A stretch of DNA of 64,000 nt from assembly GCA_032372955.1 (NCBI GenBank), contig GCA_032372955.1_4725.1, one strand, 5' to 3'. Made by a program: the position numbers and the translations under genes. Origin of the DNA: Escherichia coli. GTDB taxonomy: Bacteria; Pseudomonadota; Gammaproteobacteria; Enterobacterales; Enterobacteriaceae. The notes beneath the pieces are model-generated. The model made no database searches. It saw only the letters and a list, made by a program, of their open reading frames with translations, and was not told the DNA's origin. This document shows, one piece after another, positions 17,278-47,260 of this stretch; position 1 is the stretch's first letter, and each line of letters opens with the position of its first letter.

Positions 17278-17426
17278 CGTAGGGAAAAGTTATGCGGCAT
17301 TTTTAGTGTTGTATCACGACCTCAATAACGGTAAGTGTTTACTGATACTATAGTGGCGCATGCACGCGTGTACGCTATGGTCTATCGACCGACTTATATA
17401 AGTTAATTCTGTAAAGGATACTTTCA

Positions 17427-19649
17427 ATGAATGATAAAACCCTTCTTAGCCAACAGGTCGCGGCCACTCGCCAGTTCCTGACCGCTAATGGTAGCAAACC
17501 AGCAGACAAAGGTCTGGAGAACACCTTCCTGTCTATGGAATCTGCTTCTAAGGTTGATTTCAAATCCATGGACAAACTGGTTAACGAAATGGATGTTAAG
17601 AGCTTCAGCAGCGACATCCGTAAAGCAGAAGAACCGGTTCTGTCCATGCTGGGCTTCGAAACCACCACTCCGGAAGAGAAGCAGCGTATTGAAGAACAGC
17701 TGTTCACCATGAACGCACAGCAGGCTCGTGCAGCAGCACTGATCATGCTGGCTCATGGCAACCCGGTGGAATATGCTAAACAAGCACGTTCCATGAACAT
17801 CAGCACCACTCCGTCTGGCCGTGAAGTTGACAGCTCTAACTTCGTCATGATGGCCGCCGATTCCTGCGGTTGCGAATCTGAAGAACTGGTTCAGCTGTCC
17901 TACGACCAGAAAGAACTGCGTGACATGATGCCGTACTCCGTTGTGTTCAACGTGAAGGCTTCTCGTCTGAGCCGCATGGGTAACGAACTGTACAACACCA
18001 TCGTTCTGGCTCCGAACCAGATCGGTTACGACGTATCTTTCCGTCGTCCGCTGGTGTTCAACCACCTGCGTCGTAACGCTGACGGTACTCCGGCTGATTG
18101 GGTACGTCGTCCGCTGCTGGATGCGTTCATGTACAACGACGTTCTGTCCAACGACGTGACCGATCTGCATCCGATCTATCGTGCTGACGATGCTAACGCG
18201 CAGTACTTCGTTGACAAAACTATCGTTGCTCCGCGTGACATCGAAATTAAAGGCGTAACTTACAAAACGTCTTACCTGGCCGTTGATAAACTGATCGACA
18301 TGATCGGTATTGCTGAAGACGATAGCATCCTGGCTAACGGTTACAGCGACAACACCGACGCGCTGGACGCTCAGATCACGCTGACCAAAATCCTGGTGGA
18401 AATCAAATCCACCAAACACAGCAAAACCTCTTACGTACCGTTCGACGTATCTGGTCTGATCACCAACGGTTTCCAGAAATCCCTGGAAGGCGACTTCCGC
18501 AAAATGACCCTGGCGTTCGACACCCACTCCATCTTCGTTGATGAGAACACCGTTGACGTTAAAGGTGCACGAGCTGAAGCGCTGCAGGACATCATCGATT
18601 CGAAATCCGCTGCTCAGCTGGCAATCGAAGTTTACGGTTCTTCCAACGTAGAGAAAGCCGGTCTGCGTGTTAACGGCGCTAACGCTGAACTGTATCGTCT
18701 GGTCGATCGTGACAACATCGAACAACCGCGTAAGGGCGAAGAGTTCAAACAGCTGGCTGAAGACCTGAGCTTCAAACTGGTTGGTTACGAACTGCGTATC
18801 CGCCGTAACAACAGCAACCGTCGTGAGCGTGGTAAGCACCTTGACTTCAACATGAAGCAAGAACGTTACGCAATCGGCCTGCTGGCTCCGTTCTCCATTC
18901 CTCGTCCGCTGGATTGGGAAGAAAACGCTGCTGACCTGGACGTTCTGATCCAAGCTGCTAACGCACGTTTCGACAACCTGATGGTTGAGAAACTGTTCAG
19001 CTACAAAGACGCACTGAAAGCGGTTGCGACCTCTCGCTTCCGTCAGTTCGGCGACATCCAGATCGAAGGTTTCGGTCGTTACCTGATCCGTCCGTGGTTC
19101 GAAGAAATCAATCTGGACCTGGAGAAATCTGTTCAGGGTACCACCACTGCAGAACGTCGTGCTGAAGTGTCCGCTGCGATCATGAACGTGATTCGTGAGA
19201 TGGCATACCGCATGTACTCCGAGTCTGGTTATCAGCCAGCTCTGCAGCTGCTGTCTTCCAACGCTGATGAGAAACCGCGTTGCGTAGTAGCAACTGACAA
19301 CTACATCCCGCAGTTCCTGCAGACCGATGGCGATTTCCGTACCGTTGGTGTGAGCTTCAACTTCGTGGTTGTAGATAACCCGAACGTCATGCTGCGCGAT
19401 AAGATCTTCGTGACCCTGTCTCGTGGTATCCAGGGTTCTCCGGATCCGCTGACCTTCGGTATGTTCCTGTATGTACCGGAACTGGTATCTGTTGCTCAGG
19501 TTACCCGTAACGGTCAGGTTTCTAAAGAAACCATGGTTCAGCCGCGCTGCCGCTTCGTTAACAACTGCCCGCTGCTGGGTCTGATTAACGTTGTGAACCT
19601 GCGTAAGGTCTACACTGAAAACATCAAGCTGCCTGTTCAGACTAACTGA
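17427..19649 (+). CDS. abundant virion structural protein, probable major capsid protein
   Basis: 740-aa ORF, AAAGGA RBS. Extreme bias to high-expression codons (ctg, cgt, ggt, aac, ttc), unlike neighbours; size fits jumbo-phage capsid proteins. Identity not verified. Confidence 0.55.
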   Translation: MNDKTLLSQQVAATRQFLTANGSKPADKGLENTFLSMESASKVDFKSMDKLVNEMDVKSFSSDIRKAEEPVLSMLGFETTTPEEKQRIEEQLFTMNAQQARAAALIMLAHGNPVEYAKQARSMNISTTPSGREVDSSNFVMMAADSCGCESEELVQLSYDQKELRDMMPYSVVFNVKASRLSRMGNELYNTIVLAPNQIGYDVSFRRPLVFNHLRRNADGTPADWVRRPLLDAFMYNDVLSNDVTDLHPIYRADDANAQYFVDKTIVAPRDIEIKGVTYKTSYLAVDKLIDMIGIAEDDSILANGYSDNTDALDAQITLTKILVEIKSTKHSKTSYVPFDVSGLITNGFQKSLEGDFRKMTLAFDTHSIFVDENTVDVKGARAEALQDIIDSKSAAQLAIEVYGSSNVEKAGLRVNGANAELYRLVDRDNIEQPRKGEEFKQLAEDLSFKLVGYELRIRRNNSNRRERGKHLDFNMKQERYAIGLLAPFSIPRPLDWEENAADLDVLIQAANARFDNLMVEKLFSYKDALKAVATSRFRQFGDIQIEGFGRYLIRPWFEEINLDLEKSVQGTTTAERRAEVSAAIMNVIREMAYRMYSESGYQPALQLLSSNADEKPRCVVATDNYIPQFLQTDGDFRTVGVSFNFVVVDNPNVMLRDKIFVTLSRGIQGSPDPLTFGMFLYVPELVSVAQVTRNGQVSKETMVQPRCRFVNNCPLLGLINVVNLRKVYTENIKLPVQTN

Positions 19650-19736
19650 ACTACCGTAGCTGCTTCGTTGGACGATATTCTTGACGACAACGTTGCGGAT
19701 GGTTTCATTGCACCGGACATTCATCCGGCACCGTGA
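19650..19736 (+). other. in-frame 28-codon open extension after the capsid TGA stop
   Basis: No stop from 19650 to TGA at 19734-19736, same frame as capsid ORF; encodes TTVAASLDDILDDNVADGFIAPDIHPAP. Confidence 0.4.
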
Positions 19737-19748
19737 TACATAAGTCAG

Positions 19749-19778
19749 CCTCCCTCAGCCCGTAAGGGTTGGGGGAGG
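19749..19778 (+). terminator. conserved hairpin element variant followed by TTTCTATG
   Basis: CCTCCC-TCAG-CCC-GTAA-GGG-TTGG-GGGAGG, downstream of the capsid gene and its extension. Confidence 0.5.
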
Positions 19779-19820
19779 TTTCTATGCCGTTTACGTTGTG
19801 AATAGAAAAAATTTGACGCT

Positions 19821-19836
19821 TACATTACCTAGGTGA
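19821..19836 (+). promoter_or_regulatory. conserved promoter-like motif TACATTACCTAGGTGA (copy B)
   Basis: Exact repeat of copy A, ~150 nt upstream of the 19986 gene. Confidence 0.45.
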
Positions 19837-19985
19837 CAGACGCCTGCGATGAATAAGGCATAGACAACACGTAAGGTCGTTCTCGCGCTAGGAACGATGC
19901 TGAAACCGTCGGCTGTCGGCTCGATAAGAACAAGAAAAGGGAAATGCGTTATGCGTGATAGTTTTCAATCAGATGGAGGTTGACG

Positions 19986-21422
19986 ATGCCCTCCATGCCA
20001 ATATGTGATACCGCGTTCGAACCGTGGGATGGTACGCACGCTTATCGCATTGACGGTTATGCTGAACCGTTATATGACCTGGAATTAGGATGGGCATGTA
20101 TTAATGAATCTGGCCATACCGTGTTGGTGATCACCTCCGACAATATGTTCCAGTACATTCCTGGTAGGGTTGAGGACGGCAATACATTCAGGATCGTACG
20201 ACGTTCAAAATTTCGTAGTCCTGTAATAGTTGACAGCCATGACGTATCTAATGCGAATGGTGCATTCAGAAACTTCGTCTACGCGGGTAGACGTCGGGAT
20301 ATACTCCGTGTTAAAAACGGCACAGGTTACGCGATAAGGAAACCGCATATCCGTCGTATTGTTAACACAGAGAAAATGCCGCGTCTACTAGACCAGCAAG
20401 ACTGGTACGATACGCTGGATGAAATATGTCAAATTGACCTCAACACGTTGAACTTTAATCAACCCGCATATGTCGCGCAAATCAACGTGGCAATCGTAAA
20501 AGTTAAAGGAGAATACAAAAGCGCAGACCACGTTACGAAAGGGATTGATCACCCCTACATCGCAACGTGCGCGCGGAGCTTGACGGGAAAAACAGAGGGT
20601 TTCCGAATTCTCGGAACGCAACTCACTATCCATTGGACGCCACCCGACTTTCATAATCCGTATAGCTTATGGGTTAACGTGTTAGGGAAAGCGTTCGAAA
20701 TAAAACCAACGAATGGAGCAGGCGCGCCAGGTATGTTGGTTACCTTCGGGAATAATGACTCCATCTTCGTACCGGTCGAAGATTTGGAAAAAGAGATGTG
20801 GAAGTACAATGTTTTTCCGACACGTGAATCGGCATTGCATTGGCGCGACCCCGTCCAAAAAGAAGCCTACAAAAATGATTTCGACCAACGTAGCTACGAA
20901 CGTAAGGCATCGGAAGAAACCCTTAAAGGGGTGATGGCTGAAATGCGACGTATGGCGGATGAACACAAGGCAGTTATCGCACAGATGCATGAGGCGCATC
21001 GCGCCGACGCAAAGCTGCGCGATGAACAACATAAAGCCGAACTCGATCAGCTTAAAGACGAACAAAAACGTAGGATGGAACAACACCAAGCCGAAATGAA
21101 ACGTCAAGATGATCTACGTAAACAAATACACGAAGATTATCAAGCTGATTTAAAACGTCGTGATGATGAGGCTAAACGCAAACATGAAGAATTCGTCGCT
21201 GAACTTCGTCGTCGAGATGAAGAATCCAAACGTAAGCACGACGAGTTTGCTGCTGAGATACGCCGACGTGATGAAGAGGCAAAAAGACAACGTGAAGCGG
21301 AAGAAGCGCGACGTCAACGTAACGTCGATGTTTGGAAAGCCGCTGCGAGTATAACTGCGGCCGTTGTCGGTATAGGTATGACCTTTTTCAAGATTCTTGA
21401 GAAGGCGTCATCGAAAAAGTAA
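19986..21422 (+). CDS. hypothetical protein with charged helical repeats and C-terminal transmembrane anchor
   Basis: Start chosen at ATG 19986 (GGAGG RBS). C-terminal ~130 aa is E/R/K-rich with tandem RRRDEEAKRKHEEF repeats, then hydrophobic AAASITAAVVGIGMTFF. Confidence 0.65.
   Translation: MPSMPICDTAFEPWDGTHAYRIDGYAEPLYDLELGWACINESGHTVLVITSDNMFQYIPGRVEDGNTFRIVRRSKFRSPVIVDSHDVSNANGAFRNFVYAGRRRDILRVKNGTGYAIRKPHIRRIVNTEKMPRLLDQQDWYDTLDEICQIDLNTLNFNQPAYVAQINVAIVKVKGEYKSADHVTKGIDHPYIATCARSLTGKTEGFRILGTQLTIHWTPPDFHNPYSLWVNVLGKAFEIKPTNGAGAPGMLVTFGNNDSIFVPVEDLEKEMWKYNVFPTRESALHWRDPVQKEAYKNDFDQRSYERKASEETLKGVMAEMRRMADEHKAVIAQMHEAHRADAKLRDEQHKAELDQLKDEQKRRMEQHQAEMKRQDDLRKQIHEDYQADLKRRDDEAKRKHEEFVAELRRRDEESKRKHDEFAAEIRRRDEEAKRQREAEEARRQRNVDVWKAAASITAAVVGIGMTFFKILEKASSKK
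21153..21314 (+). repeat. tandem ~54-nt (18-aa) coding repeats
   Basis: KRRDDEAKRKHEEFVAEL / RRRDEESKRKHDEFAAEI / RRRDEEAKRQREAEEARR read directly from the translation. Confidence 0.6.
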
Positions 21423-31680: not shown

Positions 31681-32616
31681 GTGAGTGATACGGTAACAAC
31701 TATTGACGACACCGAACTTTACCCGGTCGACGTCTCTTTACCCTCATCCGATCTCGTGTATGGTCTTATCAACCACGATAACCCACCTCAGAACGGAGAG
31801 CATGTTCTAACCCCTGAATTATTGGTTTTAGGAACACCAACCACCAACCAAAGCGCCTACGAGCGCGACACCCAGATTACGGCGACAGCAACCGCTAAGC
31901 TTACCGAGTTGGACGATTATGAAGGTTCGACGACGCTGTATTACGATCGTATTAACATCGGTGCGTATCTGCGTAACGTAGCGCCTATTCTTATCGATGC
32001 GCCAGACGCCGCCAAGATGCGTGATATCTGGCCTATCATCAAAGAACGTTTCGGTCTTGGCCTTACCGCGGAAGAAATCGTCAACGACGAACTTAACTGG
32101 GATACCGTTAACGGACAATTGCTTCGTGTCGCATCTAACTGCCTGGCTTGGACGGGGAGCGTTCGTATCTTGATGAAGTCGCGTGTACCGAATCTTGATG
32201 ATATTATCGCGATCAAGGAGCTGGACGGCCTTAAGTTCTTCGGTCAAGGCGTACGCGCTAGCGGCGAGATTTACAGTTACAGCCGTGATACTTCTGATTA
32301 CGGTGAACTGCTGGCTTCGCTGGTAACAGGTACCGTTATTAGCGATGTGGTGGTTGCCGATCTTCTGGCTGAAATGACTACCGATCGTTGGGTATTAGAC
32401 GACAACGCCGCACCGTATAACCTGTATAATGCTAAAGTGGCTTTCAACGGTGAGTTAGGCGGACGTATTCCAGCAAGAGCAGGTTACCAATACGGTATCG
32501 AGATCAGTCTGGATGAAAACTACTGTACTGCCGTTGGCGGTCCATTGATTTTCTATTACAATGTCGACGGACATACCGCAAGCCTCCAGGGTCGTTCTCC
32601 AGAAGAACAAGGCTAA
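31681..32616 (+). CDS. paralogue family protein (YYDRI / LAWTGSV motifs), member 1
   Basis: 311-aa ORF, GTG start with GAGGAGG RBS; motifs YYDRINIG, ERFGLGLT, LAWTGSV. Confidence 0.65.
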   Translation: MSDTVTTIDDTELYPVDVSLPSSDLVYGLINHDNPPQNGEHVLTPELLVLGTPTTNQSAYERDTQITATATAKLTELDDYEGSTTLYYDRINIGAYLRNVAPILIDAPDAAKMRDIWPIIKERFGLGLTAEEIVNDELNWDTVNGQLLRVASNCLAWTGSVRILMKSRVPNLDDIIAIKELDGLKFFGQGVRASGEIYSYSRDTSDYGELLASLVTGTVISDVVVADLLAEMTTDRWVLDDNAAPYNLYNAKVAFNGELGGRIPARAGYQYGIEISLDENYCTAVGGPLIFYYNVDGHTASLQGRSPEEQG

Positions 32617-32626
32617 GGAATAAACA

Positions 32627-33478
32627 ATGAGTCAGAAATTGTTAAACAAAAGTCCTAAAGTACTGGTCGCTGAACTTATTCAGGCAGCCAATCCTGACTT
32701 CGACTTTAACTTCGATGCAATTGATATCACGGATGTTGCTGAAAACGGAAACCACGCGTATAAACGGAACACGCGCGCTAAGGTATCGCCTTCGGCAACA
32801 GTAACACCAGCACAATACCGTGAAAGCAGCTACGTGTGGTACGATCGTATCCCTATCCAAGACTTCTTCTTGGGGATGGAACCGAAGCTTGCTATCGATG
32901 CCGGGGTTAAAACGACGCACGATCTTATCCCTCTGATTCAATCAACGTACGGAATCGTTATCGATCAGGATAGCTGCGTCGATTCTCCGATCGTACGAGG
33001 CGATGAATATCCGTTCCCGCACACCGTAGAATTGAAAACCACCGGATTGGCTTGGACGGGAAGTGTTACGTTCTATCTCCTCGATAGTGCCCACGATATT
33101 GCGGGGATGATGAAGACTTCGGTGATGACCGGTCTCAATTTCCCGTACTACACCGCAAATCGTATCCAGGCATTGGTCTACAGTTACGCCATAGACTGTA
33201 CAGCGATCCGTTCCGATCTCGCCGGATTAAAAGTTGGCGGTAACTTAAGCGCACTGGTTAGCTTATTCAACAACGTTGCGCCAACCCCGTGGGTTTATAA
33301 CGGCCGTGAAGACGAAAACAACCTTTACGGAGCCACCGTGCTTGCAACCGGTAAAACAACAGAACTTATCGCACAGGGTTATCCTGTTAACCCGGCGTTC
33401 GCTAACGCTGTCATCGTTACGCTTAGCCAAGATTACTGCACGAACTACGGCGGTATCCTGTTGATGCAATATAACTGA
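32627..33478 (+). CDS. paralogue family protein, member 2
   Basis: 283-aa ORF, AAGGAA RBS; motifs VWYDRIPI, STYGIVID, LAWTGSV. Confidence 0.65.
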   Translation: MSQKLLNKSPKVLVAELIQAANPDFDFNFDAIDITDVAENGNHAYKRNTRAKVSPSATVTPAQYRESSYVWYDRIPIQDFFLGMEPKLAIDAGVKTTHDLIPLIQSTYGIVIDQDSCVDSPIVRGDEYPFPHTVELKTTGLAWTGSVTFYLLDSAHDIAGMMKTSVMTGLNFPYYTANRIQALVYSYAIDCTAIRSDLAGLKVGGNLSALVSLFNNVAPTPWVYNGREDENNLYGATVLATGKTTELIAQGYPVNPAFANAVIVTLSQDYCTNYGGILLMQYN

Positions 33479-33494
33479 TTAAATAGGAAAAGAC

Positions 33495-34379
33495 ATGGCT
33501 TCTACACAAATCCGTGCTACCGATCGTATCGTCCGTACGATTATCGGCGGTCAAGTACAAACTAACCTTACGCTCGGTCTTCCTCATGCATGGGAAGAAC
33601 ACAGCACCTTGAATGAAAAGCTTCAGATTCAATCAAAGGTTTACCCCGAGGGTAATCCTGCTGTACGTTACTTCTGTATCGGCAACCAGGGTCACGAATT
33701 CATCCGCAACGCTAACGGTATCCCTTCCTCGATGCCGATCGCTCACGAAGCAAGCGATCTATCACCGTGGAAAATCAAACCTTTCGTAATGCGTGAAGTT
33801 GGTAACGACTTGACCACGGACGAACGCGCTAAATTTGGGTTACGTCGTATTGAGACACTGGAAAGCGGTAAAAAGTATATCTGTTATTACGGTCGTCGCA
33901 TCGATTTCGATAACGTTGTCCGCTCCATGCGTTATACCAAATACGTCGACGGTGTCGCTCAGACCATCGAATGGCATCCAACCGACGCGAACCTCAACCC
34001 CGCCCGACCAGATATTCCAACAACCGGAATTCTGGTAGCGACCGGGGAGTACTACGACTACAGCTGTAAAGTCTCTTTGGTTTGGACGCCATGGGATATT
34101 AACGAATATCTCAATGTGGCTAAACTCACCGAAGGTGGTGAAGAGTACGCGGTTATTTCTGAAATTGGGATGGTCTCTGCGGGCGATAAAATCGTTCGTG
34201 CTGATGATGGTCAAGGTTCGGCCTTCGACATGAACGAAATCGTCGGTGCGCAGGTTACCGATCTGATTTCGACTTACCACAACCTTTATACCACCAACGA
34301 TACGCTGACACTGAAATACGACCTTGGTGCGTTGGAAGCTCGTAAGGCAGGCCCGACGGGCGCAGAAATCCTACCGTAA
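33495..34379 (+). CDS. paralogue family protein, divergent member 3
   Basis: 294-aa ORF, AGGAAAA RBS; weaker motifs YYGRRIDF and LVWTPWD in the same order. Confidence 0.55.
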   Translation: MASTQIRATDRIVRTIIGGQVQTNLTLGLPHAWEEHSTLNEKLQIQSKVYPEGNPAVRYFCIGNQGHEFIRNANGIPSSMPIAHEASDLSPWKIKPFVMREVGNDLTTDERAKFGLRRIETLESGKKYICYYGRRIDFDNVVRSMRYTKYVDGVAQTIEWHPTDANLNPARPDIPTTGILVATGEYYDYSCKVSLVWTPWDINEYLNVAKLTEGGEEYAVISEIGMVSAGDKIVRADDGQGSAFDMNEIVGAQVTDLISTYHNLYTTNDTLTLKYDLGALEARKAGPTGAEILP

Positions 34380-34394
34380 CCTAAGGGGTGTTAA

Positions 34395-35300
34395 ATGGAG
34401 TACAGTGAAATCCTAGGGTTAGAATCGAAAGAAATCCTCTTTCGGCTGATTCGAAAGCATAGCGATTTCGATGCTCGAGGCGTAACGCTGGATAAACTGG
34501 TTATCGGTGAGGCTTCTGAAAGCACAGGGTACAAGCGTAACAGCAAGTTAACCGTGCATCCCCAGCCGGGTTCAGGGCTGGTGAACTCTGTCGACATCTA
34601 TTATAACCGCATCGATCTTGGTAAACTGGGTACTTGGCCTGGCGGACAGCACCACTGGCCCGTCGAGATCGAAACCTTAGATGCGCTAACCAAGGTCTCT
34701 GAGATCCTACCTGTCTTAGCATCGACGTACGGTATCCTTCTCAACAAAACCGAGATTGTCGACGCAGATCTGGATAAGTCCAAGTCACCGATACAGGTTG
34801 TGATAACACCTAAACCCGGTAACCAAGTATGGGTTGGTCAGTTACTTGTCGAGTTAACTTCAGGACATAATGACCTCAACAACCTCGTTCGCAACAATAT
34901 GTTGGCTGGGTTGAATTATATCATCGATCGAGATAGCAGTAAACTCCCGGGCGCTATTGTTTCGTACAACTGGTTCGTATCTGCTGGTGTTCTGGCGTCA
35001 CTTACCGATGGTTATACGTTAACCTCAGGTGATACGCAATCGGAGGCACTAATCGCAGAAATGAACATGCTGCAATTGGGTCTCTCTGAAGAGATCGACG
35101 GCCTTATGGTCAACGATCGCTGGGTATTGTCAGCAATACCTGGACCACTCAACTTGCAGAATGCGAGAGTAATAGCCGATCCAGAGCAATTCAAAACACT
35201 ACCGTTTGGCGTGCGTACGGATGTTAGTAAAGCCGTCGTACTTCAACTTAGTGTGATGAATACGCTCATCGATGGTTATCTAACGCTATATGTAGCATAA
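34395..35300 (+). CDS. paralogue family protein, member 4
   Basis: 301-aa ORF; motifs YYNRIDLG, STYGILLN, VWVGQL. Confidence 0.65.
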   Translation: MEYSEILGLESKEILFRLIRKHSDFDARGVTLDKLVIGEASESTGYKRNSKLTVHPQPGSGLVNSVDIYYNRIDLGKLGTWPGGQHHWPVEIETLDALTKVSEILPVLASTYGILLNKTEIVDADLDKSKSPIQVVITPKPGNQVWVGQLLVELTSGHNDLNNLVRNNMLAGLNYIIDRDSSKLPGAIVSYNWFVSAGVLASLTDGYTLTSGDTQSEALIAEMNMLQLGLSEEIDGLMVNDRWVLSAIPGPLNLQNARVIADPEQFKTLPFGVRTDVSKAVVLQLSVMNTLIDGYLTLYVA

Positions 35301-45631: not shown

Positions 45632-45678
45632 AAGAGCAATAGCCGAGCTGTACAAAACCCATACTATTGCTCTTTATG
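45632..45678. terminator. hairpin followed by TATG at the 3' end of the - strand abundant gene
   Basis: AAGAGCAATAG ... CTATTGCTCTT (11-bp stem, 21-nt loop) then TATGCTT. Confidence 0.4.
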
Positions 45679-45682
45679 CTTA

Positions 45683-46225
45683 TTAGCCAACAACGCTAAC
45701 GGTCGGTTTCACGAAGCCATCAGCTACGTTATCCGCCAGAACGGTTGCCAGGTCATCTTTCGGTGCAGCTGCGTAGGTCAGTGCAACCTGCAGAGTGCCG
45801 GTATATACCAGGCCATTCTCGATCGCATTCAGAGTTACCTGACCAACAGTACCTGCAGACAGCTGGAAGGTTTCTTCATTGATTTCACCGGTCAGGGAAG
45901 CCAGACCGAATTTGGTGACCAGCTTGCTTACCAGCTCGGAAGCCTTAATGCTGTCGGTACCGTGCGGCAGTTCGAAAGTAACATCGCCAGTTACATCAGC
46001 GAAAACTTCGGACAGAGCCAGACGATCGTAGTAGAACTGCTGAGTACCCTGCAGGTTAGCTGCTTCAGCTGCAGCATCCAGCTGAATAACGGTGTTCTTT
46101 TCATGTTCGGAAGACGTCTGCGGAGTACCGAACTGCAGTTCTTCTTCGGTCAGCGTGCGGGTTGCTTTGGTGTTGATAAGATCAAGCAGAAGGGATTTCG
46201 CTGCTTTGTTAAAGTCTAAGGCCAT
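45683..46225 (-). CDS. abundant small protein, short member of the YYDR/LxYTG paralogue family
   Basis: Start chosen at internal ATG (MALDFNK) with GAGGACA RBS; high-expression codon usage like the capsid gene; motifs FYYDRLAL, TKFGLASLT, LVYTGTLQV. Confidence 0.65.
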   Translation of the reverse strand: MALDFNKAAKSLLLDLINTKATRTLTEEELQFGTPQTSSEHEKNTVIQLDAAAEAANLQGTQQFYYDRLALSEVFADVTGDVTFELPHGTDSIKASELVSKLVTKFGLASLTGEINEETFQLSAGTVGQVTLNAIENGLVYTGTLQVALTYAAAPKDDLATVLADNVADGFVKPTVSVVG

Positions 46226-46366
46226 GATAATGTGTCCTCTGATTTTTGATGGTCGAAAAGGAGATTCGGAGTCGTTCTCCATAATATTTACATTAATATA
46301 AAATATATTAATTTCTGTAAACACTTACATCTTTTGAGAGTGATGTAACAACCATAGAGGTAGAAA

Positions 46367-47260
46367 ATGGCAACTCAAGTTTCGCTTACTTTAAAAACAC
46401 CTTGGCAACTTATCGTTGATGAGATTAACAAACTCAACGCCGACACTGGTGCCAGCTTCCAATACACCGACCTTAAATACGTTCTTAAAGAAAAGAATCC
46501 TTCTGCTCCAGAAGCAACTTTAACGCTTAGCCCTGGTGATGGTACCCCTTACTTCAATAACCGTGATGTTACCTACCATCGTCTGGATCTGGCTAAATGG
46601 TTCCAGAAAATCGCTGTACGTGTTAACGTTACTGCTGACACCACCATCGGTGATGTGGTTGACCTTGTAGCTCAACGCTACGGTATGATCACACCGACCG
46701 GTGAGAAGTTCCTGGATAAAGATAAAGACATCAAAGCCGATACGTTATCTAATCCGGTTACCTTCAACGAGCATGGTATCCAGACGATCACCCTGGAAGC
46801 TAAAGAAGATTCGTTGGCGTGGTACGGCTCTGTTCAAGTTAAAGTTTATAACACCACGCTGGATCTGGCTAACATCATCAAGGTTACCAATCTGGGTAAC
46901 TTAACCTACGTTGATGAAGGCGACGGCACCAAAACGTCAGCACGTCTGTTAACCTATCCGTTAGACTTCAGTACTTACACCGCAGGTTTACAAGCTATTA
47001 CCAGCAACGATACCAAGATCGATGCAGGCTTAGCAGGTAACCTGACTACCCTGATCAAAGAGCAGACTGGTGTAAGTGATGATATCATCAATGAACTGAA
47101 AACCAATCTGCAAACAGCTACCTTTGTCTATAACGGTGCTACCACCGGGTCTACTGACAAAGGTGTTAACGCTACGTACAGCAATGTGCTGGTGCTGTCG
47201 TTAGCTGACGGTACTCACACCTACGGTAAAGCAGTATTCGGTTATAACGTTTCCGAATAA
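46367..47260 (+). CDS. paralogue family protein, member 5
   Basis: 297-aa ORF, AGAGG RBS; motifs VTYHRLDLA, QRYGMITP, LAWYGSVQV; divergent from the 45683 gene. Confidence 0.65.
   Translation: MATQVSLTLKTPWQLIVDEINKLNADTGASFQYTDLKYVLKEKNPSAPEATLTLSPGDGTPYFNNRDVTYHRLDLAKWFQKIAVRVNVTADTTIGDVVDLVAQRYGMITPTGEKFLDKDKDIKADTLSNPVTFNEHGIQTITLEAKEDSLAWYGSVQVKVYNTTLDLANIIKVTNLGNLTYVDEGDGTKTSARLLTYPLDFSTYTAGLQAITSNDTKIDAGLAGNLTTLIKEQTGVSDDIINELKTNLQTATFVYNGATTGSTDKGVNATYSNVLVLSLADGTHTYGKAVFGYNVSE

What the first reader, a model, noticed from the sequence alone, without database searches (positions are those of the whole stretch)
45683..46225. Short paralogue with capsid-like codon optimisation, divergently paired with a normal paralogue
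The - strand gene 45683-46225 uses almost exclusively high-expression codons (ctg, cgt, ggt, ttc, aac), like the capsid gene and unlike its five paralogues. It is about 180 aa, roughly the C-terminal two-thirds of the family, and ends with the DNVADGF motif that also appears after the capsid stop codon. A gene family member recruited as a very abundant protein, sharing a C-terminal tag with the capsid locus, is unusual.
Basis: partly seen in the sequence, partly recalled or inferred. Interest (0 to 1): 0.55.

Follow-up and report, generated by a model that had tools for sequence, protein, structure and literature searches.

The report
Abundant filament subunit mimicked by capsid readthrough tail
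The gene is the orthologue of phage Goslar gp23, a very abundant virion protein already described in a 2026 preprint, but its C-terminal docking peptide is also encoded, in frame, just behind a leaky TGA stop of the capsid gene in several related jumbo phages, which suggests an unreported read-through capsid isoform that anchors these proteins to the head.

Summary
The window is a Goslar-like nucleus-forming jumbo phage (Chimalliviridae). The gene at 45683-46225(-) is the orthologue (91% aa) of Goslar gp23. The codon claim holds: by two measures only this gene and the major capsid protein (MCP) gene are strongly optimised. The abundance is already published: an April 2026 preprint estimates about 2,140 gp23 copies per virion and predicts head-to-tail DUF7941 filaments. 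The protein is the N-terminal two-thirds of the family (globular domain plus linker), and the window holds four full-length paralogues, not five. The DNVADGF observation is real and is the interesting part. It lies in a 28-codon extension that is in frame with the MCP and directly follows its TGA stop. The motif half of that extension is as conserved as the MCP itself. All five TGA-ending MCP genes examined (Goslar-like, a 68%-identical metagenomic relative, Erwinia PhiEaH1, Serratia Haymo, Ralstonia RP12) carry an in-frame G-F-motif extension; six TAA-ending ones do not. In Goslar, PhiEaH1 and Haymo the extension best matches that phage's own short DUF7941 tail. Inference: programmed UGA read-through yields a minor MCP isoform that anchors gp23/DUF7941 chains. 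No read-through protein has been observed.

The parts
45683..46225 (-). CDS of the 180-aa short DUF7941 protein, orthologue of Goslar gp23 (globular N-terminal domain plus linker/tail, no C-terminal domain)
   Evidence: 91% aa identity and conserved gene order with Goslar gp023. Pfam PF25613 scores 77.8 bits against a cut-off of 27; PHROG 2935 also matches. AF2 model has pLDDT 89, and its only significant PDB fold match is a chain of the phiKZ outer peripheral baseplate, 9xqd_0, E 3.4e-7.
45995..46225 (-). Residues 1-77, the conserved N-terminal part of the globular domain (inferred acceptor site for a neighbour's tail)
   Evidence: 57-77% identity between the two allele classes and many invariant columns in 18 homologues. 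The acceptor role is inferred from AlphaFold 3 predictions reported in the preprint.
45761..45994 (-). Residues 78-155, hypervariable centre (two allele classes in otherwise near-identical phages)
   Evidence: 31% aa identity here, while the flanks are 88-91% nt identical and the MCP is 99% identical on the same contig.
45686..45760 (-). Residues 156-180, conserved C-terminal tail (DUF7941 linker/docking peptide) containing DNVADGF at 45713-45733
   Evidence: LATVLA[DN]NVA[DE]GF.KP is kept in homologues that are only 45-57% identical overall. C-terminal peptides were detected in Goslar virions. The homologous motif lies at the junction of the N- and C-terminal domains in the long paralogues.
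45632..45682 (-). Second TAA stop (45680-45682) and a terminator-like hairpin (about 45632-45674)
   Evidence: Read directly from the sequence. The tandem stops contrast with the single TGA of the MCP gene.
46226..46366 (.). Divergent intergenic region. It holds the 12-mer GTAAGTGTTTAC (46317-46328, - strand) followed after 33 nt by TATGG (46279-46283), upstream of the target gene
   Evidence: The exact 12-mer occurs only here and upstream of the MCP gene, with the same 33-nt spacing to TATGG. Degenerate copies are conserved in relatives.
46367..47260 (+). Divergently transcribed full-length DUF7941 paralogue, orthologue of Goslar gp22 (about 580 copies per virion in Goslar)
   Evidence: Pfam hit at 1.1e-50. 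Third-highest CAI in the window, 0.473. The divergent pairing is conserved in L054, L056 and L058. Copy number comes from the preprint.
17427..19649 (+). Major capsid protein gene (740 aa) ending in TGA (19647-19649) followed by A
   Evidence: PF25620 PhiKZ_MCP, E 4.6e-216. CAI 0.741. It uses TGA, whereas 46 of 59 ORFs use TAA.
19650..19736 (+). In-frame 28-codon extension TTVAASLDDILDDNVADGFIAPDIHPAP plus a TGA stop; putative read-through tail of the MCP
   Evidence: Among 13 close relatives the variable sites are 3 synonymous third positions and one V-to-A change. Against L084, codons 14-28 differ at 1 of 45 nt, versus 7 of 39 in codons 1-13 and 10 of 54 in the 3' UTR (Fisher p = 0.007). Smith-Waterman score 61 against the gp23 tail, shuffle p = 0.0002.
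19749..19783 (+). Intrinsic terminator hairpin of the MCP transcript, downstream of the extension's stop
   Evidence: Because of its position, the extension lies on the MCP mRNA.
17331..17380 (+). GTAAGTGTTTAC-N33-TATGG element upstream of the MCP gene
31681..35300 (+). Cluster of three full-length DUF7941 paralogues (31681-32616, 32627-33478, 34395-35300) around a DUF7208 gene (33495-34379, orthologue of the Goslar gp32 baseplate spoke protein)
   Evidence: The role of gp32 comes from the preprint.

Best explanation
The gene encodes the orthologue of Goslar gp23, the minimal subunit of the chimallivirus-specific DUF7941 family: a globular N-terminal domain plus a flexible C-terminal tail. This is shown. 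[quoted passage not shown] That comes from the literature: AlphaFold 3 predictions, and filaments seen for gp22. Goslar gp23 is present at about 2,140 copies per virion, above the 1,615 MCP copies. This explains why it and the MCP are the only two strongly codon-optimised genes in the window, why both lie behind the same GTAAGTGTTTAC-N33-TATGG element, and why gp23 ends in tandem TAA stops. The conserved termini are the polymerisation interfaces, and the hypervariable centre is inferred to be an exposed surface. The new inference concerns the capsid gene. A copy of the gp23 tail is encoded in frame directly behind the MCP's TGA stop. A small fraction of ribosomes is proposed to read through this UGA and make an MCP isoform with a 29-residue C-terminal tail. 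The MCP C-terminal arms meet at the centre of each hexon, so the tail would emerge there and could capture the N-terminal domain of gp23 or another DUF7941 protein. The capsid, not only the baseplate, would then be an attachment or nucleation site for DUF7941 chains. In some relatives (Salmonella SA002, and more weakly Xanthomonas RTH11 and Erwinia RAY) a linker-like tail is fused to every MCP copy with no stop. In others it sits behind TGA. In others it is absent.
For: IDENTITY AND ABUNDANCE. establish the identity; the preprint gives the copy number. CODON BIAS.. THE EXTENSION IS UNDER SELECTION. (1) The two DNVADGF copies differ at 4 of 7 third-codon positions and at no other position. (2) Among 13 close relatives the extension shows 3 synonymous changes and one V-to-A change. 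(3) Against L084, the motif half diverges by 2.2%, close to the 3.3% of the MCP coding sequence, while the linker half and the 3' UTR diverge by 18% (p = 0.007). (4) L053, whose MCP is 68% identical, also has TGA followed in frame by SLLELLGDGLLDGFGYPELP. Its stop sits 5 codons later, but the spacing from the conserved PV residues to the SL at the start of the motif is the same. (5) RP12, PhiEaH1 and Haymo (MCPs about 30-37% identical over the last 200 aa) end in Pro-TGA followed in frame by ...SPDGFNEFGA...LSQAIVNPQLNGFTKP and ...FENPLSGFDPA. None of the six TAA-ending MCP genes examined (L052, Eowyn, RSL2, MJ359, pEa_SNUABM_6, CR5) has such an extension. (6) Lineage-specific matching: each extension scores best against its own phage's short DUF7941 tail, at 61, 40 and 29, with shuffle p = 0.0002, 0.0004 and 0.009. 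(7) The SA002 MCP tail, which lies inside the ORF, matches a linker profile built only from long paralogues (10.7 bits, p = 0.0005). SUPPORTING CONTEXT. (8) The most codon-optimised gene uses the leakiest stop codon, in a TGA-A context, and the terminator lies after the extension. (9) The extension's CAI of 0.459 is below 99.3% of same-size windows inside the MCP gene, as expected for rarely translated codons. (10) The MCP C-terminal arms form a barrel at the hexon centre in Goslar. In phiKZ pentons they contact the outer-surface protein gp244.
Against: No read-through protein has been observed. The published mass spectrometry searched annotated proteins only, and the extension has no Lys or Arg, so trypsin would give one 35-residue peptide. 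The cryo-EM model ends at MCP residue 740, and gp23 is not resolved anywhere on the virion. The first 13 codons of the extension evolve fast, with mostly non-synonymous, conservative changes. The low CAI is also what non-coding DNA would show. L052, phiKZ, SPN3US, CR5 and others lack the tail, so it is dispensable in some lineages. One contig combines an MCP extension reading DDNVADGF with a gp23 tail reading NNVAEGF, so matching is not residue-exact. Whether the C-terminus points outward or inward in hexons is not stated in the papers read. Similarities for RTH11 and RAY are weak (p = 0.03-0.23). I could not run a multimer prediction of the extension bound to the N-terminal domain.
Confidence: 0.6

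Rival explanations
1. gp23 and the other DUF7941 proteins attach only at the peripheral baseplate, as the preprint proposes. The sequence after the MCP stop is a decaying remnant of an ancestral MCP C-terminal tail, or is translated only as harmless noise, and has no present function.
For: The phiKZ gp127 N-terminal domain is modelled at the tip of the baseplate star lobe, and the target's model matches that chain. There is no density or mass-spectrometry evidence for an extended MCP. The extension has low CAI and its first half evolves fast. Some lineages have lost the tail.
Against: A remnant would not keep its frame, its motif and a TGA stop in five lineages whose MCPs have diverged to 30-70% identity. 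It would not track each phage's own short DUF7941 tail. It would not be as conserved as the MCP coding sequence while the adjacent UTR diverges six-fold faster. The preprint's own arithmetic, with six anchoring sites, requires filaments of about 3 micrometres.
Confidence: 0.2
2. The shared C-terminal peptide is a recognition tag for a third factor rather than a DUF7941 docking peptide. Candidates are an assembly chaperone, a factor at the capsid-docking or phage-nucleus surface, or an internal head component. gp23 would then be a head-associated protein, possibly internal, delivered by that tag.
For: The peptide is C-terminal in both proteins. The gp23:MCP ratio is about 1.3:1, and the two genes share a promoter-like element. 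gp23's location in the virion is unresolved. The orientation of the MCP C-terminus in hexons is not known to me.
Against: In the long paralogues the same motif is internal, at the linker that AlphaFold 3 docks on the next subunit's N-terminal domain, and purified gp22 forms filaments. No other ORF in the window carries the motif. Full-length gp23, including several S/A/G-x-E sequences, is recovered from virions at 90% coverage. This argues against exposure to the prohead protease, whose phiKZ-type cleavage motif I recall from memory.
Confidence: 0.15
3. The codon bias does not reflect expression level. It would instead result from recent horizontal acquisition, strand or compositional effects, or gene conversion with the capsid gene.
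For: The gene lies on the minus strand among mostly plus-strand genes, and its centre is a variable cassette.
Against: GC3 is ordinary at 0.52. The bias runs specifically towards E. coli major codons and MCP-like usage. The protein is measured as hyper-abundant in Goslar. The two motif copies differ at synonymous sites, which rules out recent gene conversion.
Confidence: 0.03

Closest known systems
Goslar gp23 (YP_009820708) and the DUF7941 family (PF25613), as described in bioRxiv 10.64898/2026.04.21.720040
   Same: Orthologue: 91% aa identity, the same divergent pairing with gp22 and the same endolysin neighbour. Same architecture of N-terminal domain plus linker without the C-terminal domain. 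[quoted passage not shown]
   Different: The protein itself does not differ in any essential way. The preprint does not mention the codon bias, the hypervariable centre, or the copy of the tail behind the MCP stop codon: it has no occurrence of read-through, stop codon or MCP extension. It places the anchor only at the baseplate.
phiKZ gp127/gp126 (DUF7941; PDB 9xqd, outer peripheral baseplate)
   Same: Same fold in the N-terminal domain (Foldseek E 3.4e-7, TM 0.61/0.72). A head-to-tail gp126-gp127 dimer is predicted.
   Different: The phiKZ proteins are full length and few in number. The phiKZ MCP ends ...GKLADLKP with no linker-like tail and no extension.
Q-beta A1 (minor coat protein made by UGA read-through of the coat gene); also luteovirus CP-RTD
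   Same: A leaky UGA at the end of the most highly expressed capsid gene, followed by an in-frame extension. This gives a minority isoform that is incorporated into the capsid and serves host interaction (established knowledge, cited from memory).
   Different: Those are small RNA viruses with long, folded read-through domains. Here the virus is a 240-kb dsDNA jumbo phage, the extension is only 16-28 residues, and it appears to mimic the polymerisation peptide of a separate structural protein family. Read-through here is inferred, not demonstrated.
T7/T3 gp10B (minor capsid protein made by a -1 frameshift at the end of gene 10A)
   Same: A dsDNA phage makes a minor capsid isoform with a surface-exposed C-terminal extension by translational recoding (established knowledge, from memory).
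   Different: That mechanism is frameshifting, not read-through. No function as an anchor for another protein family is known for the gp10B extension.

Membership tests
DUF7941 (Pfam PF25613) | Sequence match to the family profile above the curated threshold | tested here: met
   77.8 bits against a cut-off of 27, covering profile positions 4-174 of 276. PHROG 2935 matches at 1.7e-21 over the full 180-position profile.
DUF7941 (Pfam PF25613) | Fold of the N-terminal globular domain as in phiKZ gp127 | tested here: met
   AF2 model with pLDDT 89. Its single significant PDB hit is 9xqd_0 (phiKZ outer peripheral baseplate), E 3.4e-7. That this chain is gp127 is inferred from the papers.
DUF7941 (Pfam PF25613) | Linker motif D-L-x3-[IVLM]-x5-6-[LA]-x-G-[LF] after the N-terminal domain | tested here: met
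   The sequence KDDLATVLADNVADGF aligns with the linkers of all four long paralogues and of the SA002, RAY and RTH11 members.
DUF7941 (Pfam PF25613) | C-terminal globular domain (full-length architecture) | tested here: not met
   The protein stops 9 residues after the motif. Short forms make up a recognised subgroup: PHROG 2935, Goslar gp23, the RTH11 179-aa protein, pEa_SNUABM_54 gp46, Haymo gp40 and the PhiEaH1 200-aa protein.
DUF7941 (Pfam PF25613) | Head-to-tail oligomerisation or filament formation | not testable with these tools
   Known only from the preprint's AlphaFold 3 predictions and its negative-stain images of gp22. No multimer prediction was available here.
Orthologue of Goslar gp23 | High identity and conserved gene order | tested here: met
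   93.5% nt identity over 2 kb and 91% aa identity. The gene lies between the endolysin and the gp22 orthologue, as in Goslar.
Orthologue of Goslar gp23 | Very high copy number in virions | not testable with these tools
   Goslar gp23 has about 2,144 copies by label-free quantification, at 90% coverage. Here only the codon bias can be measured, and it agrees.
Programmed stop-codon read-through capsid isoform (Q-beta A1 type) | Leaky stop codon (UGA) ending the major capsid gene, with an open in-frame extension on the same mRNA | tested here: met
   TGA-A is followed by 28 sense codons, a second TGA and then the terminator. The same layout is found in L053, RP12, PhiEaH1 and Haymo.
Programmed stop-codon read-through capsid isoform (Q-beta A1 type) | The extension is conserved at the protein level across diverged relatives | tested here: met
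   Conservation is confined to the motif half, and the number of independent lineages is small (five).
Programmed stop-codon read-through capsid isoform (Q-beta A1 type) | The extended protein is made and incorporated into virions | not testable with these tools
   The published peptide list comes from a search against annotated proteins only.
Programmed stop-codon read-through capsid isoform (Q-beta A1 type) | A known stimulatory RNA element or SECIS downstream of the stop | tested here: not met
   No Rfam family matches at 19400-20000. The small hairpins around the stop are not conserved between the window and L053. Q-beta-type leakiness does not require such an element.

The most novel reading that the evidence does not exclude
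Several genera of Chimalliviridae use programmed UGA read-through of the major capsid gene to make a minor capsid isoform. Its short C-terminal tail mimics the polymerisation peptide of the DUF7941 family. Hexon centres would then nucleate or capture chains of the hyper-abundant short subunit (gp23), tipped by carbohydrate-binding DUF7941 proteins. The result would be a 'hairy' capsid that helps find the host. The density of anchors would be tuned by evolution through three states: tail fused to every MCP copy, tail behind a leaky stop, or tail absent.
Probability: 0.4. Interest if true: 0.8.

Novelty: new variant of a known kind. Interest (0 to 1): 0.68.

Why it matters
The gene itself is a new member of a family described in 2026, and its abundance is already known. 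The link to the capsid gene is, as far as I could find, unreported. No paper in the searchable library connects read-through with jumbo-phage capsid genes. If it is true, three things follow.

- It would add a conserved case of translational recoding in the main structural gene of large dsDNA phages.
- It would offer an answer to an open question raised by the Goslar structure paper: where more than 2,500 unresolved DUF7941 subunits per virion attach. Their baseplate-only model implies filaments of about 3 micrometres.
- It would point to a natural, tunable C-terminal display site on a T=27 capsid, useful for engineering.

The idea can be tested directly with existing mass-spectrometry raw data and simple stop-codon mutants.

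Tried and rejected
- **PDB sequence searches.** Searches with the target and with a long paralogue found nothing. Only the fold search found the phiKZ baseplate chain.
- **DNVADGF back-translated scan of viral contigs.** It gave 46 loci. Apart from the Goslar-like contigs, all were chance matches in unrelated proteins.
- **Collection scans for diverged MCPs.** The search for related loci on viral and metagenome contigs returned only MCPs that are 98-99% identical. The diverged MCPs came from the protein database and from isolated phages.
- **Linking L053's extension to a gp23 orthologue from the same phage.** The samples differ. The best-matching tail (P0034, score 43) cannot be assigned to that lineage.
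- **Residue-exact co-variation within the Goslar clade.** This was not found: one contig pairs an extension reading DDNVADGF with a gp23 tail reading NNVAEGF.
- **Short DUF7941 paralogue in SA002.** None was found in its first 70 kb.
- **Generic linker profile.** It scores the very short extensions of RP12, PhiEaH1 and Haymo poorly. Their similarity shows only against their own phage's short-paralogue tails.
- **E. coli complete genomes.** They contain no copy of the MCP 3' region.
- **Alternatives for the extension that were rejected.** Selenocysteine or a known RNA element: no Rfam hit. An independent small ORF: the only candidate start is a TTG with no Shine-Dalgarno sequence. Recent gene conversion between the two motif copies: they differ at 4 of 7 synonymous sites.
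- **The 766-aa antisense ORF over the MCP gene.** It has no family match and is a by-product of codon bias.
Full report
**What the window is.** The region around the finding is 93.5% identical in DNA to Escherichia phage vB_EcoM_Goslar, and the capsid region is 98% identical. Goslar is a nucleus-forming jumbo phage of the Chimalliviridae. The gene at 45683-46225(-) corresponds to Goslar gp023, annotated 'virion structural protein'. It lies between the endolysin gene and a divergently transcribed 297-aa gene, the gp022 orthologue.

**Checking the observation: codon usage.** The ORF starts at the ATG at 46225 and encodes 180 aa.
- The major capsid protein (MCP) gene, 17427-19649(+), scores 0.741.
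- The target scores 0.669.
- Every other ORF scores 0.473 or less.

A test that needs no external table asks, per codon, whether MCP codon usage or the usage of the rest of the window fits better. The target is the only ORF with a positive value (+0.276, z = 5.3). CTG makes up 83% of its Leu codons, against 96% in the MCP, 27% in the paralogues and 22% elsewhere. Rare codons are 2.2% against 12%. The codon observation is solid.

**Checking the observation: the motif.** DNVADGF occurs exactly twice in the six-frame translation. One copy is at residues 165-171 of the target. The other is at 19686-19706(+), in the same frame as the MCP and 12 codons after its stop.

- Pfam places the protein on positions 4-174 of the 276-position DUF7941 profile. 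It is therefore the N-terminal two-thirds of the family, not the C-terminal.
- Only four full-length DUF7941 paralogues are in the window. The gene at 33495-34379 is DUF7208.

**What the protein is.** An AlphaFold2 model built on 18 homologues is confident (pLDDT 89). Its only significant match in the PDB is a 150-residue chain of the phiKZ outer peripheral baseplate (9xqd_0, E 3.4e-7).

A preprint of April 2026 (bioRxiv 10.64898/2026.04.21.720040) reports the Goslar virion structure together with quantitative mass spectrometry.
- gp23 is the most abundant unmodelled virion protein, at about 2,140 copies. The MCP has 1,615 copies and gp22 about 580.
[quoted passage not shown] - Purified gp22 forms filaments.
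- The authors propose a 'fibre cloud' anchored at the peripheral baseplate.

So the reading that a family member was recruited as a very abundant protein is correct, and it is already published for the orthologue. The CAI ranking in this window (MCP, then gp23, then gp22) follows the published copy numbers.

**Further anatomy of the gene.** Homologues of the short protein keep the N-terminal 77 residues and the last 25 residues. Residues 78-155 are hypervariable. One viral contig has an MCP that is 99% identical and flanks that are 88-91% identical in DNA, yet its gp23 is only 52% identical, and 31% in the centre. This pattern fits conserved polymerisation interfaces around an exposed, diversifying surface.

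The gene ends in tandem TAA TAA stops. Ninety-two nt upstream of its ATG lies the 12-mer GTAAGTGTTTAC, followed 33 nt later by TATGG. The only other exact copy in the window lies 85 nt upstream of the MCP start, with the same spacing. Degenerate copies are conserved upstream of both genes in relatives. This is a candidate strong late promoter shared by the two most abundant proteins.

**The capsid-locus copy of the motif.** The MCP ends ...KLPVQTN-TGA. The same frame continues as TTVAASLDDILDDNVADGFIAPDIHPAP-TGA, and only then comes the intrinsic terminator. Several observations indicate selection on the encoded peptide.
- The two DNVADGF copies differ at four of seven third-codon positions and nowhere else.
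- Across 13 near-identical relatives the extension shows three synonymous changes and one V-to-A change.
- In a more diverged relative (L084), codons 14-28 differ at 1 of 45 nt. This is similar to the 10 of 300 in the MCP coding sequence. Codons 1-13 differ at 7 of 39 and the 3' UTR at 10 of 54 (Fisher p = 0.007).
- The extension aligns with the gp23 tail with a local score of 61 (shuffle p = 0.0002).

**Relatives.** A metagenomic MCP that is 68% identical (L053) also ends in TGA and continues in frame as SLLELLGDGLLDGFGYPELP before a TAA and a terminator. Its stop lies five codons later than in the window, but the distance from the conserved PV residues to the SL that begins the motif is unchanged. 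A 71%-identical MCP (L052) ends in TAA and has no extension.

Among isolated chimalliviruses, three more MCP genes end in Pro-TGA followed by a short in-frame ORF with a G-F motif:
- Ralstonia RP12: RIGNTSPDGFNEFGA
- Erwinia PhiEaH1: TPLSQAIVNPQLNGFTKP
- Serratia Haymo: TLGEAFENPLSGFDPA

Five MCP genes ending in TAA (Eowyn, RSL2, MJ359, pEa_SNUABM_6, CR5) have nothing comparable. In total, five of five TGA-ending MCP genes carry the extension, and none of six TAA-ending ones does. The stop context is TGA-ACT in the window, PhiEaH1 and Haymo.

In other phages a tail lies inside the MCP ORF with no stop:
- SA002: ...GDLAANIATAVLDGLNAQPKP
- RTH11: ...VNNVYLNGLKYPSI
- RAY: ...AQDLGGLNTTP...

The SA002 tail matches a linker profile built only from long paralogues (10.7 bits, p = 0.0005). 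RTH11 and RAY match only weakly.

**Lineage-specific matching.** I located the short DUF7941 paralogues of PhiEaH1 (200 aa, ending ...HLNTAIKTTDLDGFTPPNNDLSEAIIYPTLAGYRYPSLPDDEQPE) and of Haymo (gp40, ending ...QTLQSFSENLGGFDAPSA). In a score matrix each MCP extension scores best against the tail of its own phage's short paralogue: Goslar-like 61, PhiEaH1 40 and Haymo 29, with shuffle p = 0.0002, 0.0004 and 0.009. This co-variation is hard to explain unless the extension is expressed and binds the same partner as the tail.

**Proposed mechanism.**
- Shown: the identity, fold and family of the protein; its codon bias; the conservation pattern of the gene; and the existence, frame, conservation and lineage-matching of the MCP extension.
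- From the literature: the copy numbers, the predicted head-to-tail docking, the gp22 filaments, and the Goslar MCP C-terminal arms forming a six-stranded barrel at the hexon centre. In phiKZ pentons the arms touch the outer-surface protein gp244.
- Inferred: a small fraction of ribosomes read through the MCP's UGA, the least efficient stop codon in enterobacteria, here mostly in a UGA-A context and often after Pro. This would produce an MCP isoform whose tail emerges at hexon centres and captures the N-terminal domain of gp23 or another DUF7941 protein. The capsid would then be an attachment or nucleation site for DUF7941 chains.

This would ease the preprint's difficulty that six baseplate anchors imply filaments of about 3 micrometres. 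The extension's CAI (0.459, below 99.3% of equal-sized windows in the MCP) fits rare translation, although it would also fit non-coding DNA.

**What argues against it.**
- No extended MCP has been seen. The published peptide list comes from a search of annotated proteins only, and the extension has no tryptic site.
- gp23 is not resolved anywhere on the virion.
- The first half of the extension evolves quickly.
- Several lineages lack the tail.
- Matching is not residue-exact within the Goslar clade.
- I do not know whether the hexon C-termini point outward.
- I could not run a multimer prediction.
- No known RNA element (Rfam) lies near the stop, but UGA leakiness of the Q-beta type does not need one.

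**Comparison with known systems.** The protein is a member of DUF7941 and the orthologue of Goslar gp23; only the C-terminal domain of the full-length architecture is missing, as in the recognised short subgroup (PHROG 2935). The inferred capsid isoform works like Q-beta A1 or luteovirus CP-RTD (read-through) and like T7 gp10B (a recoded minor capsid isoform). It differs in occurring in a jumbo dsDNA phage, in being very short, and in mimicking the polymerisation peptide of another protein family. The searchable literature has no report of read-through in jumbo-phage capsid genes, and DUF7941 appears only in the preprint and one unrelated paper.

**Verdict.** The abundant-paralogue part is already explained by a recent preprint. 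The capsid-locus motif reveals a conserved in-frame post-TGA extension that matches each phage's own short DUF7941 tail. It is most simply explained by programmed read-through that creates a capsid anchor for these proteins.
- Confidence in the protein's identity: about 0.97.
- Confidence that the extension is translated and functional: about 0.6.
- Confidence in the specific model of capsid-anchored filaments: about 0.4.

Noticed in passing
window 17424-19724 (-): A 766-aa ORF runs antisense across the whole MCP gene and is longer than the MCP ORF itself. It has no Pfam or PHROG match and is best read as a by-product of the MCP's extreme codon bias, not as a gene.
   Followed up: partly
window 17331-17380 (+) and 46279-46328 (-): The element GTAAGTGTTTAC-N33-TATGG has its exact 12-mer only twice in the window: upstream of the MCP gene and upstream of the target gene, the two most codon-optimised genes. 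Degenerate copies are conserved upstream of the same genes in L052, L053, L056, L058 and L098. It is a candidate strong late promoter or transcription start.
   Followed up: partly
window 45761-45994 (-); L098 1501-2028: The centre of the short protein (residues 78-155) exists in two allele classes that are about 31% identical. The phages carrying them have 99% identical MCPs and flanks that are 88-91% identical in DNA. This looks like a diversifying or exchangeable surface cassette.
   Followed up: partly
L109 13685-14830 (Serratia phage Haymo gp42); L108 26990-27592 (Erwinia phage PhiEaH1): Haymo gp42 is a DUF7941 N-terminal domain followed by about six tandem copies of the linker motif (DL..I...DLEGLEYP). 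The PhiEaH1 short paralogue carries two tandem linker motifs. If each motif binds one N-terminal domain, these proteins could be branching hubs of the filament network.
   Followed up: no
window 33495-34379 (+): A DUF7208 gene, the orthologue of Goslar gp32, sits in the middle of the tandem DUF7941 paralogues. gp32 is the baseplate spoke protein and is homologous to phiKZ gp139, next to which the gp127 N-terminal domain is modelled. The gene order mirrors that reported physical neighbourhood.
   Followed up: no
window 46267-46281 (-), 5' UTR of the target: A small hairpin (GGAGAACGACTCCGAATCTCC) starts right at the conserved TATGG and is kept in L056, L058 and L098. It could be a 5' stem-loop that stabilises the mRNA of a very highly expressed gene.
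   Followed up: no
window, all 59 ORFs: Stop-codon usage is TAA 46, TGA 10 and TAG 3. The most codon-optimised gene (the MCP) uses TGA, while the second most optimised (the target) uses tandem TAA TAA.
   Followed up: yes
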